A stretch of DNA of 64,000 nucleotides from Pocillopora damicornis (lineage: Eukaryota). Shown in pieces: positions 35,701 to 44,700 of the stretch; positions within the stretch are counted from its first letter, which is position 1; each line of letters opens with the position of its first letter. The position numbers were made by a program. The stretch covers positions 124,001 through 188,000 of the forward strand of contig NW_020844755.1 of assembly GCF_003704095.1 (NCBI RefSeq), written 5' to 3'.

Positions 35701-38700
35701 TCCCCTAGTCTCTAGTCTTGCACCCAGACCTCTCACGGCTACGAGGTTGTAAGCTCTCCAACACTTGGGGCCCTACATTGAACGGTTACATCCTGAAAAT
35801 AGAAAGAATAGAAAAGATATTCGTCGATAAGTTAAAATTCTTAACTTTAATTTATCCAACAAACAAACGCATAGTGAAAATAATTTTGGAATGATTTTAT
35901 ATGTTAGAGGAGTTAAGAAAAAGAGAACGAAATTTAGAGGTAAGAGGCTATAAGGAGGTCCGTACTATAAGTCAAAGACTGAGTTTTTTTCTACTCTGAT
36001 TTATGGTGCGAACTGCGCGGGCCTCAATGCCGAGCGCAAAAAAAAAAAAAAACAAGCTCCCTAATTTATAGTATGGACAGAGAGAATGAAGTCAGTAAGA
36101 CATTAATTATAAAGAAGGGGAAATTATTTTTTATTCCAACGATCGACCGTTTCTTATCGTTTCTGCTCAGATGATTGGTCGATAAATATTTACTTCTTAA
36201 TTTTAACAAAAAGGGATTTATTTACTTATTTGGTTCAGTTCTGAACGAGAAAAAATTGAGAAAGATAGTCCACCATACGGGTCTTAAGAAAATGTGGATT
36301 TACCTTTGAGACAAATCGGCCATTTCTAATAGTGTTCTCTAAACTTTCCCGAACTAAATCTCAGAAGTACACGTGATTAGTTATCTGTTCGAAGCTGATA
36401 AATGCAATGAATAACCGCAGGAAAGAATTTCGAAAAGCTCACGTTATTCTTCCATGCAGAGCAAAGTAGAGAACTGTGGGTCGGGTACGTACGTTTATAT
36501 CTGTTGATATTGTGGAACTGCACCATCGGAGCAAGCAGAAATAAATAAATTAAAAGTTAAGATGACAAGTATTCGTTAAATTCACCGGAGCAAAGTCGAT
36601 AAGTAATATAAAAGTTTGTTTAGGTTCTCTAAGCGGAGGGAAGATCGGCAATCAGAATGCACAATGCAATACATTGCATTGAAACGCATCTTAGTTCTAT
36701 GTACTTACTTTAATTGATAAACATAATTAGTCAGAACACCGCCAATACCATCTTTACAATTGCTATCTTCCGCTACTTCGTAGGTATTGTAAGCCTCCCC
36801 TAATGTTTTGTCCGTCCAGCACTCGCCATTGTTTTGCAAAGCAAAGTATTCGATCATCTTGTCACGTGCGACGTATGCACATTGCAGGATTGTATACCCG
36901 GGATCGTCATCATTTCGTTGAGCCACGAAGGTCGCAAATTTATCTTTGAGAAGCCTCTTAGAGCCTTTGTTCTCCTTGAAACAGCCAATTGCATTAGGCG
37001 TTGGCTTTGACTCTGGAAAAAAAAAATGGGAAGTTGATAGTCTCTGTTGTGCCAGTTTTCATTCGTCATTAACTAAGGAGCATTTCAGCTTAAGAAGTGT
37101 TCTAGAGGAAAGTGATTTTAGAGGGCAGGCCGCTATCATCCTAGCTGCAATTCACCACTTTTATAATTTTAATTTTTGTCATCTTAACAACATAATATAT
37201 AGATTTAGCCAAGCCTAAAAGCGGAGCTTGCATTTTTTGCCAGGTACTCTTTTATAATTATGGGGCTACGCTCTGTGAGCTCCGCTATTACAACTGGACC
37301 AGACTTGCGTCTCCTTCAACCTTTCCCGACGGTAACCCAGAGCCAATGTTATAGCCAAGTAATACCGAGGGTCAATGAAGAAACATATGTCACAAGCTAG
37401 CTACTCAGATTGTTGTGTTATTCATTCGCTTTCACTTTAAACTCACCAAATGTATACACTTGGATGGAAAATTTTATTCCTATACCATTCTTGCAATCTT
37501 TGGCAGCAGCGGGCCCTTTCGCGTAGTAATTGTTTTTAGCAGTGCTACTGGACAAGCACTTTCCCTTATCGCCCAGTGCGAAATGGCTGTAACCTTTATC
37601 AAATGCAAGCTCTGCACACTCCAGAATGTAACTATTGAAGTTTGCTGGATCATAGTCTTTGTTAGGATATGCAAGAACTTCTTTAAAACCAGTCTTCGGT
37701 ATCTTGAAACAGCCAATATTATTGAAAGATGGTACTAGGATAAAAACAAAACGAACGTGAAGCGAAAAGGCTGTTCTTTTTTACATATGTTCACTAAAAC
37801 AGATTTAAATTACTCAACAAGTCGCTAAATTGTATGTTATGTTTGAGAGACTTAGGGCGAGGTGGCTAGCTTTATAGCTTTAAGACATTTTAATTTTCTC
37901 TCACTGATAACTTCTAAACTGTGCTCACCACTAACTAATTTAACTAGCTGCACATTTAACAGTTCCTTTTTTGCCTTTTAAGTCAAAGTATTTAATGTCA
38001 AAGTACGATTTTTCAGGACTGGAATGGAGTATTGGAAAAGTGATGGGGGGAGGGGTGGAGAATTGGGGATTTTGGAGATGCAGAAAAAAATATGGCTTGT
38101 ATTTCTAAGGAGGAAAACCGCTTTTTTTCTCTTTATGCACCTTTTTTGTTGTCTTTTTTCCCCATTTTTCTAGTAGTCTGTCCCTCGTATTTTCTCAGAT
38201 CTTTCAGCGAACGCTCTCTAGACAGGTTGACATCGTTGGAGAATTTTTACCTTACAGTATAGATCTATGTAGTATGAACTGCCCTTTTTTCTACCATGTA
38301 CAGAGAAAGACGTCAAATGGATAAATGCTTTATTACATACACTTTTCAAGTATTTTGTTTCGATCACTAACCTTGACAATTGACTCCACTAAAGTCGCCT
38401 GTGCAATCACAGTGGTATTCTGTGATGTCTTCTTTATCGTTACGGCAAGCTGCTCCATTTACACATGGATCGCTATCACACGGATAGGACTGAACTGAAA
38501 TCATCAAAACATAGCAACATGTTGGAATCTCTCGTAGCTTAAACCCCTTGAATAATGCTCGGTGAACCGATCACAATGAAAAGTCTCTTCTTTGATTGAC
38601 ACTAACCTTCACAATTCTTCCCACTGAACATTTGCTGACATTCACACGAGTACTGCATAGGATCATCTTTTTCCACCACACAAAATCCATTGTTCTGACA

Positions 38701-41700: not shown

Positions 41701-44700
41701 ACATTTCCTTACATTCACATGAGTACTGCATAGGATCATTGTTGTCCACCACACAAAACCCATCGTTTTGACAAGGATCATCATCACAACCAGTTGGATA
41801 TGAATACGAGGGTTGAATACGATACACAAAGTTTGCCATCTCTTTGCCAACTCCACCTGCACAATTGTCGGACTTTCCGTACTTGCTGTATGTATTAGCG
41901 ATGTCTTTACTGGTCCAGCATTGTACCTCGTTTTGTACAGCGAAGTACTCGTAGCCCATGTCTCGAGCCAGAGTAGAACAGTACAAAATAGTGGCTTTGG
42001 GGTCAGAGTTACTTGAGAAGCTGGCGTAATTGTCAGTCAGTAACTTCTCTGATTTCCCTTTTTCTATGAAGCATCCCTCAGGGACAGATTTCGGTAAAGG
42101 TTCTGAGAATGAAATCGATACAATTGTTCATTGGAATCATATTCCTTTTTCAGAGTAGACGTTAAAAATTTGTCGAACATGTGCAAATCCTTTCGTTGTG
42201 AAGCGACACGGGATGGCTAACGAATATCACTTTTACTTCCAATGATTACCGCAGAACACATCCACCGCGATAGGTTTGAGCGTCCATTATTTCGATTCCG
42301 TCGTAGTCTTCTCTATTCTTAACCTCTGTACATAATTTTAGTCCATTCTAGCCCTTCCAGTTTGTCAGTACCTCCAAAAATTTGGGAAAGATTTCAGCTT
42401 TTTTCAAAAAGCAGGTTTTAGTCAAATAAACCGACTCAAATTGTTTGAGTTGTATCGAATGTCTATTAAAGTTAGAATCTTCGAATCTCTTCGAATTTTA
42501 CTCACCAAAAGTATATACATGGACTGAAGATTTGCTTCCAATGTCATCCTTACAGTCACTGGCTTTGGTACCCCCTTTCTGGAAGTATTCGTTCTGAGCA
42601 GTTCCACTCGACAAACAAATTGCACGATCTCCGAGGGCAAAGTGACTGTAACCTTTGTCAAATGCAAGTTCGCCACACTCATAAATATACGATTTAATTT
42701 TTTCTGGATCGAAGTCTTGGTTGTGATTTGCCAGTACGCTTTTTAGACCAGTTTTCGGCGTCTTGAAACAACCAATCTCAGAGAAAGGAGAAGCTACGAA
42801 AATAATTAAATGCACGAGCGAATAAATGAATTTAAAAATAAAGGAAAACATAGATCGATAAATTAAACGACAAGAAGATACCAATCTCTACTATATAAAA
42901 TCGTCACACTGGTAAAAAGTTATAAAAACATCACGATAGCTTAGCGAAACAGTGTTTACATTGAATGATTTATTCTGCGACTGAAACAGGCAGACTCGCA
43001 GAAAAAGAATTCCGAGTGCTCGTACCGAAGACCTTCCGATTAGCACTTCGGATGCTCCTTCACTGAGCTATAGGAGAGTGGCAGACTAGGCCGTTTAACG
43101 AGGTCCAGAGTGACAAACCTCTTGTATACTGCTGGGATAGGAATGTTGAATGTGATGCATTTGCGCAATAATGCAAATGAAGGTGGTAAATATTAAGCCT
43201 GGTGATGTAAACCAAAGATGTTGTATTCAGCGAATGACACAGACATACTCGAAGAAAAGAACTACGAGTGCTCCTAATAAGATTGTTTACATTCTGCCAC
43301 TCTGTCGCCTGGAAATCTTCTAAGATCTTACGCGTATATGTAGATTAGCGGTCCCGAAGCCCTCTAGAAGCATGTGAGATAAAGATTTGCAGGAATCCGC
43401 TCAATCGAGAGGATGGCTTAGATTTGCCACACGAGTATATGACTTTGGCACCAGAGGAAAAGACTTAATTAATAACAACTGTTCAAATTTTACATTTCTC
43501 TCTATATTTTGTGCTTTTTAAATTCCTCTTTTTCACTTTCCCCTGATGAGGGCTGGAGTTTCTTAGCCGAAGCGTTGGGATTCTAAAATCATTTTTTTAA
43601 TACTTTTAGAAATTTTTACTCGTATAACGATTTAATATAGTTATGAAGCCACATGATCATAACTCTATTTTTAATATCAATTTTTTTTCATTTATTTTTA
43701 TCTTCATTATTTTCCTATACTAAAATGAAAGGTATGATGATCATTCTAAAACCAGCTCTGACTCAAACAATCTCTACTCTGTAACCCATGACATAATTTT
43801 CTTCCACCCGGGGTGTCAGGTTTTTTGTTTTCTCCGACGACGCTAGAAAGGGTTGTGAAATATGTGTACACTTTTTCCCTAGCCTTTAAGCAGGTCCTCA
43901 CTAATTACTACCGCTTCGGCAAGAGGGTTTCTTCGCCCAGGAAGACATGAACCTGCAACTCGAGCCGCTGAGAATCTCAAGAGGTCAGGCAATGATAACT
44001 TGTGTCGGCACCCCTGCAAGCCTCTCTCTGATTAGTCTCGAATGTTACGGCGGGCGGAGAAACGCGCGTTCTTCGAGGCTGATGAGAGCTTTCTCGCATG
44101 TTTATTTTTCCCTAACCGAGAATGACGCCGACGATTGAGGTTACAGGACTATCAATTAACAGAATCGTACAAGCAAACATAATTTTAGTGACGAATGCCA
44201 ACTTTACAACCTTTTTTTCACAAAACGTCTAAGAGTTGAGATTATAACTTCGCGAGAACTAACTGCTCACCCTTCCAAATCTCTAAAATGGATGGAACGG
44301 CTTAAATACGCAAAAAACCGCTCAGCGTGTTACGTATGCTAAGACGTGGACATTTTTATTACCTTGACATTTTTTCCCAAAGAAACCAGACAGGCAGTCA
44401 CAGTGGTATTCGGATATGTCTGTCTCATCATTCCTACAGGCTGCTCCATTTAGGCAGGGCTTGGAGTCACATGGAAATATTTGAACTGAAAGGAAAATGT
44501 GCTGTTATAGTTATGCTGAGGTTTCTGTTAGTATAAAGGAAGTAAGTTTGTTAATAAATTGTGGTGCTGTGGGTAGGGTGTATCACAAAATAACTTGGTT
44601 TCATCAACTGACTTGATAATGACCGCAAAGAGTTTCGGAGGCTAACGTTTCGAGCGTTAGCCTTACGGCAGAGCGAATTGCGAATGCTCGAGCCGTCAGC

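What the first reader, a model, noticed from the sequence alone, without database searches (positions are those of the whole stretch)
36709..42793. Paired four-cysteine WSC-like domains (A and B subtypes) always occurring as an A-B tandem
Seen: each ~95-aa domain follows GCF...C..LA..KGY.(H/Y)FA(L/V)....C(L/W)......Y...G....C..G.G.....VY. A types are at 42506, 40847, 39186 and 37447; B types at 41680, 40044, 38607 (mostly in the gap) and 36709. Established: WSC domains begin Y.GC(Y/F) and contain GY.YAGLQ.G.EC, but have more cysteines and are regarded as carbohydrate-binding. Inference: a reduced-Cys WSC relative that works as a heterotypic A-B pair.
[Added by the scan's program, not by the reader: the finding's places include an assembly gap (unread letters, written N; its length is only estimated) at 38741 to 38840, 39608 to 40034. 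Whether the letters on both sides are continuous or in frame is not known: test that first.]
Basis: partly seen in the sequence, partly recalled or inferred. Interest (0 to 1): 0.65.

Follow-up and report, generated by a model that had tools for sequence, protein, structure and literature searches.

The report
Four-cysteine WSC domain pairs, ADAMTS tail
The stretch encodes the tail of an invertebrate-type secreted protease gene in which a unit of two diverged, cysteine-poor WSC-family domains plus two EGF domains is repeated four times; it is an unusual variant of known building blocks, not a new kind of thing.

Summary
The repeated ~95-residue four-cysteine domain is real. Seven copies are readable on the minus strand (A x4, B x3). 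The eighth (B3) lies wholly in an assembly gap and cannot be checked. Each copy sits in a clean phase-1 exon, and the copies are under purifying selection (dN/dS 0.12-0.26). A and B are homologous (hhalign E 2.4e-14) and split before the unit multiplied. Pfam sees only WSC (PF01822): B1 scores 30.5 bits against a cut-off of 27.8, five copies fall below the cut-off and A1 has no hit. Cysteine spacing fits canonical WSC C1, C2, C4 and C6. The C3-C5 and C7-C8 pairs and the CGG motif are gone. It also missed that the array follows seven EGF exons and a complete ADAMTS protease on the same strand, with compatible splice phases. The array is therefore most likely the protease's C-terminal ancillary (targeting) region. 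The "heterotypic A-B pair" idea stays untested: the alternation comes from one duplicated unit in one gene, and the structure and complex jobs gave no result. I rate it a new variant of a known kind, of modest interest.

The parts
61970..62029 (-). Candidate first coding exon of the gene: ATG followed by a 20-residue hydrophobic signal-peptide-like start and a GT donor
   Evidence: assignment inferred, no transcript evidence
48984..61209 (-). ADAMTS protease exons. Bounds are stop-to-stop ORFs. Propeptide 60880-61209; zinc site split over 57517-57693 (HExxH) and 56561-56713 (GxxHD); ADAMTS_CR_2 55298-55612 and 54773-54910; central TSR 54098-54238; Cys-rich 52118-52441; spacer 51526-51723; further TSRs 51060-51365, 50444-50572, 49613-49930 and 48984-49340. 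A third gap lies at 52589-52688.
   Evidence: Pfam exon by exon; zinc motif; PDB hits to ADAMTS13, ADAMTS5 and snake-venom-type metalloproteinase
44363..48723 (-). Seven single-EGF exons, all phase 1-1: 48604-48723, 48010-48141, 47341-47463, 46956-47078, 45879-46001, 45091-45213, 44363-44485
   Evidence: splice sites and phases; PF00008 hits in 7 of 7, with 5 of 7 above the 21.5 cut-off; six-Cys spacing
42506..42793 (-). Exon A1: A-type four-Cys WSC-like domain (288 nt, AG..GT, phase 1-1)
   Evidence: no Pfam hit on its own; homologous to the other six copies
41680..42102 (-). Exon B1: B-type WSC-like domain (41813-42100) fused to an EGF domain in the same 423-nt exon
   Evidence: WSC 30.5 bits, above the cut-off; EGF 26 bits
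41444..41566 (-). Exon E1: EGF domain (123 nt)
40847..41131 (-). Exon A2: A-type WSC-like domain (285 nt)
   Evidence: WSC 17.3 bits
40044..40466 (-). Exon B2: B-type WSC-like domain (40177-40464) plus EGF (423 nt); the exon ends 9 bases before the gap
   Evidence: WSC 25.9 bits
39608..40034 (.). Assembly gap (427 N). An EGF exon equivalent to E1/E3 is expected here but is unread
   Evidence: 564 nt between B2 and A3 against 548 nt in module 1; inference only
39186..39479 (-). Exon A3: A-type WSC-like domain (294 nt)
   Evidence: WSC 21.0 bits
38741..38840 (.). Assembly gap (100 N, placeholder length). It hides the whole WSC-like part of B3, if that part exists
   Evidence: inference from module geometry
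38607..38740 (-). Read 3' part of exon B3: linker plus EGF only
38372..38494 (-). Exon E3: EGF domain (123 nt)
37447..37734 (-). Exon A4: A-type WSC-like domain (288 nt)
   Evidence: WSC 14.3 bits
36705..37012 (-). Exon B4: B-type WSC-like domain without an EGF, followed directly by a TAA stop (36705-36707) that overlaps a donor-like GTAAGT
   Evidence: WSC 25.4 bits

Best explanation
Window 36705-42793 (minus strand) is the 3' end of a roughly 25-kb multi-exon animal gene. After a complete ADAMTS protease (propeptide, zinc catalytic domain, disintegrin-like, TSR, Cys-rich, spacer, four more TSRs) and seven EGF exons come four copies of a three-exon unit. The unit is exon A (WSC-like domain), exon B (a second, diverged WSC-like domain fused to an EGF) and exon E (EGF). 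The last unit ends after B with a stop codon.

A and B are divergent members of the WSC family, which has a PAN/Apple-type fold. They keep the cysteines at the canonical C1, C2, C4 and C6 places, which would give the C1-C6 and C2-C4 disulfides. They have lost both partners of the C3-C5 and C7-C8 bridges and the CGG motif, and the last loop is shorter.

Shown: the exons, their homology, the selection on them and the Pfam assignment.
Inferred: the array is the C-terminal ancillary region of the protease, and it acts as a multivalent, non-catalytic binding region for matrix glycans or proteins that sets where the protease sits and what it cuts. The A-B pairs would be connected by a short link of constant length and spaced by EGF pairs.
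For: Gene structure. All 9 fully read module exons have AG/GT sites, lengths divisible by 3 and phase 1-1 (288, 423, 123, 285, 423, 294, 123, 288 nt, plus B4 305 nt up to the stop).

Selection. Exons are 67-83% identical between modules, while introns are 32-45%, which is unalignable. dN/dS is 0.12-0.26 with synonymous sites near saturation. Exon GC is 0.422 against 0.361 for introns.

Control. 0 of 7 antisense or other-frame ORFs over the exons have a Pfam hit at E < 0.1.

WSC assignment. It is the only family at E <= 10 and hits 6 of 7 domains, with B1 above the curated cut-off. The matches always run from profile position 2-3 to 64-68 of 82, and for B1 and B2 they end on the fourth Cys.

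Cysteine spacing. C2 to C4 is 20 residues here, in Kremen1 and in Wsc1. C4 to C6 is 19 in B1 and in Kremen1. An invariant Ala sits at the C3 place, Ser/Thr at C5 and Ile/Val at C7.

ADAMTS context. Pfam hits run in canonical order on the same strand and the HExxH...GxxHD site is intact.

Continuity. The last TSR exon has a phase-1 donor and the first EGF exon a phase-1 acceptor about 450 nt further on. That leaves no room for a terminator, a promoter and a signal-peptide exon.

Function, from the literature. ADAMTS ancillary regions set substrate choice and localisation (PMC4448532, passages). WSC domains bind glucans or proteins, and in SiWsc3 three repeats appear to form the glycan site together (PMC9024836, passages). 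Hydra has Zn-metalloprotease + TSR + WSC + MAM proteins (PMC4820225, passages).
Against: No fold was obtained, so PAN/Apple topology and disulfide pairing rest on sequence spacing alone. Profile and single-sequence searches of PDB chains found no WSC structure: only noise at E >= 0.26 in 3 searches and no hit in 1. Five domains score below the Pfam cut-off and A1 has no hit. Features that one structural paper calls strictly conserved in WSC domains are missing: the C7-C8 bridge and the CGG motif. The eight cysteines are also reduced to four.

There is no transcript evidence that the ADAMTS, EGF and WSC exons belong to one mRNA. A review states that ADAMTSs lack EGF modules (PMC4448532). Two gaps fall inside the array, and near-identical tracts between modules (93 of 94 nt) mean that the module count could be an assembly artefact. 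Binding function is pure inference.
Confidence: 0.62

Rival explanations
1. One reading: A and B pack against each other to form one obligate heterotypic two-domain binding unit, so that neither works alone. This is compatible with the best explanation but makes a stronger claim.
For: A and B diverged before the unit multiplied, and both types have been kept in every readable unit (tree 100/99). Both are under purifying selection. By exon boundaries, the link from the last strand of A to the GCF of B is nine residues in all 3 readable pairs and is proline-rich. There is precedent in both directions: the three WSC repeats of SiWsc3 seem to form the glycan site together (PMC9024836), and the WSC domain of Kremen1 packs tightly against its neighbouring domains (PMC5014086).
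Against: All pairs derive from one duplicated unit in one gene, so alternation is expected without any interaction. Only 3 pairs are visible. There is no consistent charge complementarity: net charge is A -1, +2, +6, +4 and B 0, +1, -1. Only 5 alignment columns are fixed differently in A and B. B is physically fused to an EGF, not to A, at exon level.
Confidence: 0.3
2. The EGF/WSC array is a separate secreted-protein gene that happens to lie head-to-tail behind an ADAMTS gene.
For: Known ADAMTSs are described as lacking EGF modules (PMC4448532). No transcript data are available. The last TSR exon ORF runs on for some codons past the proposed donor.
Against: Only about 450 nt separate the last TSR exon from the first EGF exon, which is similar to the other introns. 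There is no ATG-led hydrophobic exon in between. Both junctions are phase 1. Every EGF, A and B exon is phase 1-1, so none can start a protein.
Confidence: 0.15
3. The domains are not WSC homologues but another small disulfide-bonded fold that matches the WSC profile by chance or convergence.
For: Six of 7 domains score below the Pfam cut-off or not at all. There is no hit to any solved WSC chain. Half of the canonical cysteines and the CGG motif are missing.
Against: Six related sequences hit the same family over the same profile span, with E down to 4.4e-7 and no competing family. Motif order and cysteine spacing match Kremen1 and Wsc1, and the cysteines are lost as whole pairs.
Confidence: 0.07
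4. The array is a decaying pseudogene or an assembly artefact of a shorter repeat.
For: Two gaps lie inside the array. A 94-nt tract is nearly identical between modules.
Against: No stop or frameshift occurs in any read exon. Splice sites are intact. dN/dS is 0.12-0.26. The introns of the modules are all different, so the four units are distinct loci and not a collapsed copy.
Confidence: 0.04

Closest known systems
WSC domain, Pfam PF01822 (human Kremen1 WSC, PDB 5FWS; yeast Wsc1 cysteine-rich domain, PDB 7PZ2)
   Same: Only Pfam family matched. B1 scores above the curated cut-off. Same start (GC + aromatic), a helix cysteine 20 residues before the next cysteine, a GY.YFA-type strand and a final VY strand. 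The cysteines fall at the C1, C2, C4 and C6 places.
   Different: Four cysteines, not eight. Both partners of C3-C5 and of C7-C8 are replaced (Ala; Ser/Thr; Ile/Val; and the VY strand at the C8 place). There is no CGG motif and the last loop is shorter. The profile match stops at position 64-68 of 82. A-type copies are barely recognisable (0-21 bits). The fold was not verified here.
SiWsc3 of Serendipita indica, a lectin made of three WSC repeats (as described in PMC9024836, passages)
   Same: Tandem WSC-family domains in a secreted protein. It offers the idea that several repeats together make the binding site.
   Different: SiWsc3 is fungal, has canonical eight-Cys repeats, no EGF spacers and no protease. 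Glucan binding is shown there and is untested here.
Hydra TSR proteins with zinc-metalloprotease, WSC and MAM domains (PMC4820225, passages; the figure was not visible)
   Same: An animal secreted metalloprotease combined with TSR and WSC domains in one predicted protein.
   Different: The Hydra proteins carry MAM domains. The type of protease and the number and type of WSC domains could not be seen from the passages. No A/B alternation or EGF pairs are described.
ADAMTS family ancillary regions (review PMC4448532, passages)
   Same: The same N-terminal order up to the spacer and extra TSRs. The C-terminal modules are the variable part that sets localisation and substrate.
   Different: The 19 human members use PLAC, GON-1, CUB, mucin or extra TSR modules and are stated to lack EGF modules. 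Here the tail holds 12 readable EGFs (13 if the gap holds one) and 7 readable WSC-like domains (8 if B3 exists).

Membership tests
WSC domain (Pfam PF01822) | Score at or above the Pfam gathering cut-off (27.8 bits) | tested here: inconclusive
   Met by 1 of 7 domains (B1, 30.5 bits). B2 25.9, B4 25.4, A3 21.0, A2 17.3 and A4 14.3 are below it; A1 has no hit. On untrimmed ORFs B1 scored 27.6.
WSC domain (Pfam PF01822) | Eight conserved cysteines forming four disulfides (C1-C6, C2-C4, C3-C5, C7-C8) | tested here: not met
   Each of the 7 domains has exactly 4 cysteines. The canonical pattern is taken from PMC5014086 and PMC9024836.
WSC domain (Pfam PF01822) | Cysteines of the WSC-specific C1-C6 bridge and of one PAN-core bridge (C2-C4) at canonical spacing | tested here: met
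   C2 to C4 is 20 residues here, in Kremen1 and in Wsc1. C4 to C6 is 19 (B1) or 21 (A1), against 19 in Kremen1 and 17 in Wsc1. This shows spacing only; actual pairing is not shown.
WSC domain (Pfam PF01822) | Conserved CGG motif in loop L5 | tested here: not met
   No CGG in any of the 7 copies. The VY strand starts where C8 would lie, at C6+12 (motif from PMC9024836).
WSC domain (Pfam PF01822) | PAN/Apple-type fold: a five-stranded sheet (order 1-5-3-4-2) packed on one helix | not testable with these tools
No model was made, so no fold search was possible.
WSC domain (Pfam PF01822) | Carbohydrate or protein binding | not testable with these tools
   Needs recombinant protein.
ADAMTS protease | Propeptide, reprolysin-type catalytic domain with HExxHxxGxxHD, disintegrin-like, central TSR, Cys-rich and spacer, in this order | tested here: met
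   Exon-by-exon Pfam hits in that order on the minus strand. The zinc motif is intact across a phase-2 intron. PDB hits to ADAMTS13 and ADAMTS5.
ADAMTS protease | The EGF/WSC exons belong to the same transcript as the protease | tested here: inconclusive
   Phase-1 donor and phase-1 acceptor about 450 nt apart, with no start exon between them. No transcript data.
ADAMTS protease | No EGF-like modules (as stated for the known family) | tested here: not met
   12 readable EGF domains follow the TSRs. The statement comes from PMC4448532.
EGF-like domain (PF00008) | Six cysteines with EGF spacing, and a Pfam score | tested here: met
   12 of 12 have the six-Cys pattern, 10 of them with spacing 4-5-11-1-8. 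PF00008 scores above the cut-off in 5 of 7 upstream exons and in B1, B2 and E1.

The most novel reading that the evidence does not exclude
The A-B pair is an obligate two-domain, lectin-like unit. It would be a previously undescribed type of ADAMTS ancillary module in which two complementary, disulfide-poor WSC derivatives jointly form one glycan-binding site. Repeated four times on EGF spacers, it would tether a matrix protease multivalently to a polysaccharide-rich substrate.
Probability: 0.15. Interest if true: 0.55.

Novelty: new variant of a known kind. Interest (0 to 1): 0.3.

Why it matters
If the gene model holds, this is an ADAMTS protease whose targeting region is built from EGF and WSC-family domains, not from the modules known in vertebrates. 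That would widen the known repertoire of ways in which these matrix proteases are aimed. The domain itself shows how a WSC domain can shed two of its four disulfides as whole pairs, including features described as strictly conserved. This is useful for setting family boundaries and for annotating similar cysteine-poor copies that profile searches miss (A1 has no Pfam hit at all). The pairing idea is testable with simple recombinant work. Mosaic extracellular proteins of this sort are common in invertebrate genomes, so the finding is of specialist interest only.

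Tried and rejected
No model was made, so fold search was never used.
- Complex prediction of the A1 domain with the B1 domain (one unchanged job). There was no usable answer. No verdict of any kind was obtained.
- PDB sequence searches. Four searches were run: the 7-domain profile, the B-only profile, B1 alone and B4 alone. They found no WSC chain, only noise at E >= 0.26, or nothing.
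- Two scans of prokaryotic genomes with the domain alignments: 16 pattern matches each, none confirmed.
- Rfam on the whole window: 0 matches. Tandem Repeats Finder: nothing relevant.
- Relic A/B copies among the upstream EGF exons: none.
- A further exon after B4 (transmembrane or Cys-rich): nothing convincing on the minus strand in 33900-36704.
- Charge complementarity of A and B: not seen.
- Literature. Ten full-text searches were run. None turned up a four-cysteine WSC variant, an A/B alternation or an ADAMTS with a WSC tail. One search was badly designed, because WSC was not required as a term, and says nothing. Supplements and figures were not visible, so such an architecture may be listed there unseen.
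The organism, the taxonomic range and the question of whether A always precedes B in independent lineages all remain open.

Full report
**What is there**

The window has about 30-44% G+C. In the region of the finding, short open stretches on the minus strand are separated by non-coding sequence. Reading them codon by codon and tabulating the boundaries gives clean exons. Each is preceded by a pyrimidine-rich AG acceptor and followed by a GT donor. Lengths are divisible by three, and every intron is in phase 1.

In 5'-to-3' order on the minus strand the exons are:
- A1 42793-42506, B1 42102-41680, E1 41566-41444
- A2 41131-40847, B2 40466-40044, then the gap 40034-39608
- A3 39479-39186, then the gap 38840-38741, then the read end of B3 38740-38607, then E3 38494-38372
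- A4 37734-37447, B4 37012-36708, followed at once by a TAA stop

I worked exon by exon throughout.

**The gaps, tested first**

Gap 38741-38840 is written as 100 N.
- B1 and B2 exons are 423 nt, but only 134 nt of B3 are read. These translate to the linker and an EGF domain.
- About 289 exon bases are missing, more than the gap's written length, so the 100 N is a placeholder.
- Upstream of the gap, 345 read bases look like intron (403, 380 and 434 nt in the other units).
- The B3 WSC-like domain is therefore entirely unread. Its existence is inferred only from the unit's geometry and from the B-type EGF behind it. Continuity and frame across the gap cannot be known.

Gap 39608-40034 (427 N) starts 9 bases after the B2 donor and ends 128 bases before the A3 acceptor. 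The total of 564 nt compares with 548 nt (113 + 123 + 312) in unit 1, so the estimated length is plausible. An EGF exon is expected inside but is not seen. I filled neither gap.

One caution: B1 and B2 share a tract that is 93 of 94 nt identical, and the first gap begins at the edge of the equivalent tract in unit 3. The gaps probably arise from such tracts, and the count of four units could be wrong.

**Is the repeat real?**

Yes.
- The seven readable domains align with 14 invariant columns, including the four cysteines.
- A copies are 63-67% identical to A1. The three B copies are 26-30% identical to A1.
- A and B are clearly homologous: BLASTP E 2e-8 and 8e-14, and profile-profile probability 98.3%, E 2.4e-14 over 88 columns.
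- A profile of the seven hits 7 of 2192 six-frame segments of the window at E <= 3.6e-38, with the next best at E = 2. tblastn agrees, and the repeat finder recovers the 1659/1661/1739-nt spacing.
- Exons are 67-83% identical between units while introns are unalignable at 32-45%. dN/dS is 0.12-0.26 with synonymous sites near saturation.
- So these are old duplicates kept by selection, not recent copies or chance ORFs. As a control, 0 of 7 antisense or other-frame ORFs across the exons have a Pfam hit at E < 0.1.
- A maximum-likelihood tree separates A from B with 100/99 support. The two types therefore existed before the unit multiplied.

1. Each B domain except the last is fused, within its exon, to an EGF domain. 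A further EGF exon follows, so the unit is A | B-EGF | EGF.
2. Seven more single-EGF exons, all phase 1-1, lie upstream at 48723-44363. The EGFs fall into two types (support 83/87). The last four upstream EGFs alternate in the same order as inside the units.
3. Further upstream on the same strand is a complete ADAMTS protease:
   - propeptide (E 1e-14);
   - a catalytic domain whose HExxH and GxxHD halves are intact on two exons;
   - ADAMTS_CR_2, the central TSR, the Cys-rich domain, the spacer and four more TSRs;
   - a candidate signal-peptide exon at 62029.
4. The last TSR exon has a phase-1 donor, and the first EGF exon has a phase-1 acceptor about 450 nt on, with no start exon between them. 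The simplest model is one gene of about 25 kb whose C-terminal tail is the EGF/WSC array. No transcript evidence was available.

The stop after B4 overlaps a donor-like GTAAGT, so one more exon cannot be excluded. However, nothing convincing lies downstream before the next gene, an AMP-binding (acyl-CoA synthetase-like) gene.

I do not take this contig for human. The architecture and the short introns point to an invertebrate animal, but I could not name the organism.

**Is it WSC?**

Pfam finds WSC (PF01822) and nothing else at E <= 10.
- On exon-trimmed domains the scores are B1 30.5 bits (cut-off 27.8; E 4.4e-7), B2 25.9, B4 25.4, A3 21.0, A2 17.3 and A4 14.3; A1 has no hit.
- On untrimmed ORFs, 6 of the 7 A/B exon translations hit WSC, all below the cut-off. 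The eighth protein in that call was the EGF-only exon.
- The matches always run from profile position 2-3 to 64-68 of 82. For B1 and B2 they end exactly on the fourth cysteine.

Passages of the Kremen1 and Wsc1 structure papers give the canonical bridges:
- C122-C186, C147-C167, C151-C169 and C190-C198 in Kremen1 (PMC5014086);
- C27-C86, C49-C69, C53-C71 and C90-C98 in Wsc1, plus a conserved CGG motif (PMC9024836).

Against this pattern, the spacing here is as follows:
- C2 to C4 is 20 residues, as in both structures.
- C4 to C6 is 19 residues in B1, as in Kremen1.
- Four residues after C2, where C3 should be, there is an Ala that is invariant in all seven copies.
- Two residues after C4 (the C5 place) there is Ser or Thr.
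- Four residues after C6 (the C7 place) there is Ile or Val.
- The final VY strand begins where C8 would lie, and there is no CGG.

So the domain appears to keep C1-C6 and C2-C4 and to have lost C3-C5 and C7-C8 as whole pairs, with a shortened last loop. Assigning the fourth cysteine to C6, not C7, is an inference. It rests on the spacing and on the need for a partner for C1.

Against a simple filing as WSC:
- Searches of PDB sequences found no WSC chain.
- Features called strictly conserved are missing.
- No structure model could be obtained.

I therefore call it a cysteine-reduced variant of the WSC family. B is closer to the canonical form than A.

**Does it work as an A-B pair?**

This is not shown. 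The alternation follows from multiplying one unit, so the three visible pairs are one observation.

For the idea:
- Both types are retained and constrained.
- The link between A and B is short, of constant length (nine residues by exon boundaries) and proline-rich.
- There is precedent: SiWsc3's three WSC repeats appear to form the glycan site jointly, and Kremen1's WSC packs tightly on its neighbours.

Against it:
- There is no consistent charge complementarity.
- Only five columns are fixed differently in A and B.

The direct computational tests gave no result.

**Most likely mechanism**

The steps are marked as shown or inferred.
- Shown: a constrained array of WSC-family and EGF domains sits behind an intact ADAMTS protease.
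- Inferred: the array is the protease's ancillary region. In ADAMTSs that region sets matrix association and substrate choice (PMC4448532, passages).
- Inferred: it acts as a multivalent binding region for glycans or proteins, with EGF pairs as spacers.

A Hydra study describes predicted proteins that combine a zinc metalloprotease, TSRs, WSC and MAM domains (PMC4820225, passages). So protease-TSR-WSC mosaics are not unprecedented. An ADAMTS with EGF modules does differ from the family as reviewed.

**Novelty and limits**

The ten full-text searches turned up no four-cysteine WSC variant, no A/B alternation and no ADAMTS with a WSC tail (one search was uninformative). Figures and supplements were not visible. 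The large protein databases were closed, so relatives may well exist in annotated invertebrate proteomes.

I rate it a new variant of a known kind, with modest interest.

Noticed in passing
window 41680-42102 vs 40044-40466 (and 38607-38740): Within the B exons, a tract (exon positions 236-329) is 93 of 94 nt identical between units 1 and 2, while the first 47 nt are only 30 of 47 identical. Third-codon-position identity is 61/97 in the WSC-like part against 37/44 in the linker+EGF part (p = 0.011). The pattern looks like gene conversion, and the first assembly gap starts at the edge of the equivalent tract.
   Followed up: partly
window 44363-48723 and the module EGFs: The 12 readable EGFs fall into two types (support 83/87). 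The last four upstream EGFs alternate in the same order as inside the units. This suggests an older two-EGF period to which the A-B pair was added.
   Followed up: partly
EGF exons at 47341-47463, 45091-45213, 44363-44485, 41444-41566, 38372-38494: 5 of 12 EGFs carry C-x-S-x-(A/P)-C between their first two cysteines, and 3 of 12 carry C-x4-(S/T)-C between the second and third. I recall these as the O-glucose and O-fucose consensus sites of Notch-type EGFs; the motifs are recalled, not taken from a tool.
   Followed up: no
window 36705-36712: The TAA stop after B4 overlaps a strong donor-like GTAAGT in phase 1, so alternative splicing to a further exon is conceivable. AATAAA signals lie 482 and 569 nt downstream. 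No convincing downstream exon was found.
   Followed up: partly
window 56561-57693: The protease's zinc-binding motif is split by a phase-2 intron, with HExxH at the end of one exon and GxxHD at the start of the next. It is intact, so the protease looks active.
   Followed up: yes
window 52589-52688: A third 100-N assembly gap lies inside the Cys-rich/spacer part of the ADAMTS gene.
   Followed up: no
window 45960-46343 (+): A weak reverse-transcriptase fragment (RVT_1, E 0.007, below the cut-off) lies on the opposite strand and overlaps the EGF exon at 45879-46001. It is probably a retroelement relic.
   Followed up: no
window 24542-30787 (-), possibly from 33891: The next gene downstream on the same strand is an AMP-binding enzyme (acyl-CoA synthetase-like): AMP-binding E 3.5e-12 and 1.3e-10, plus a weak AMP-binding_C hit.
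   Followed up: no
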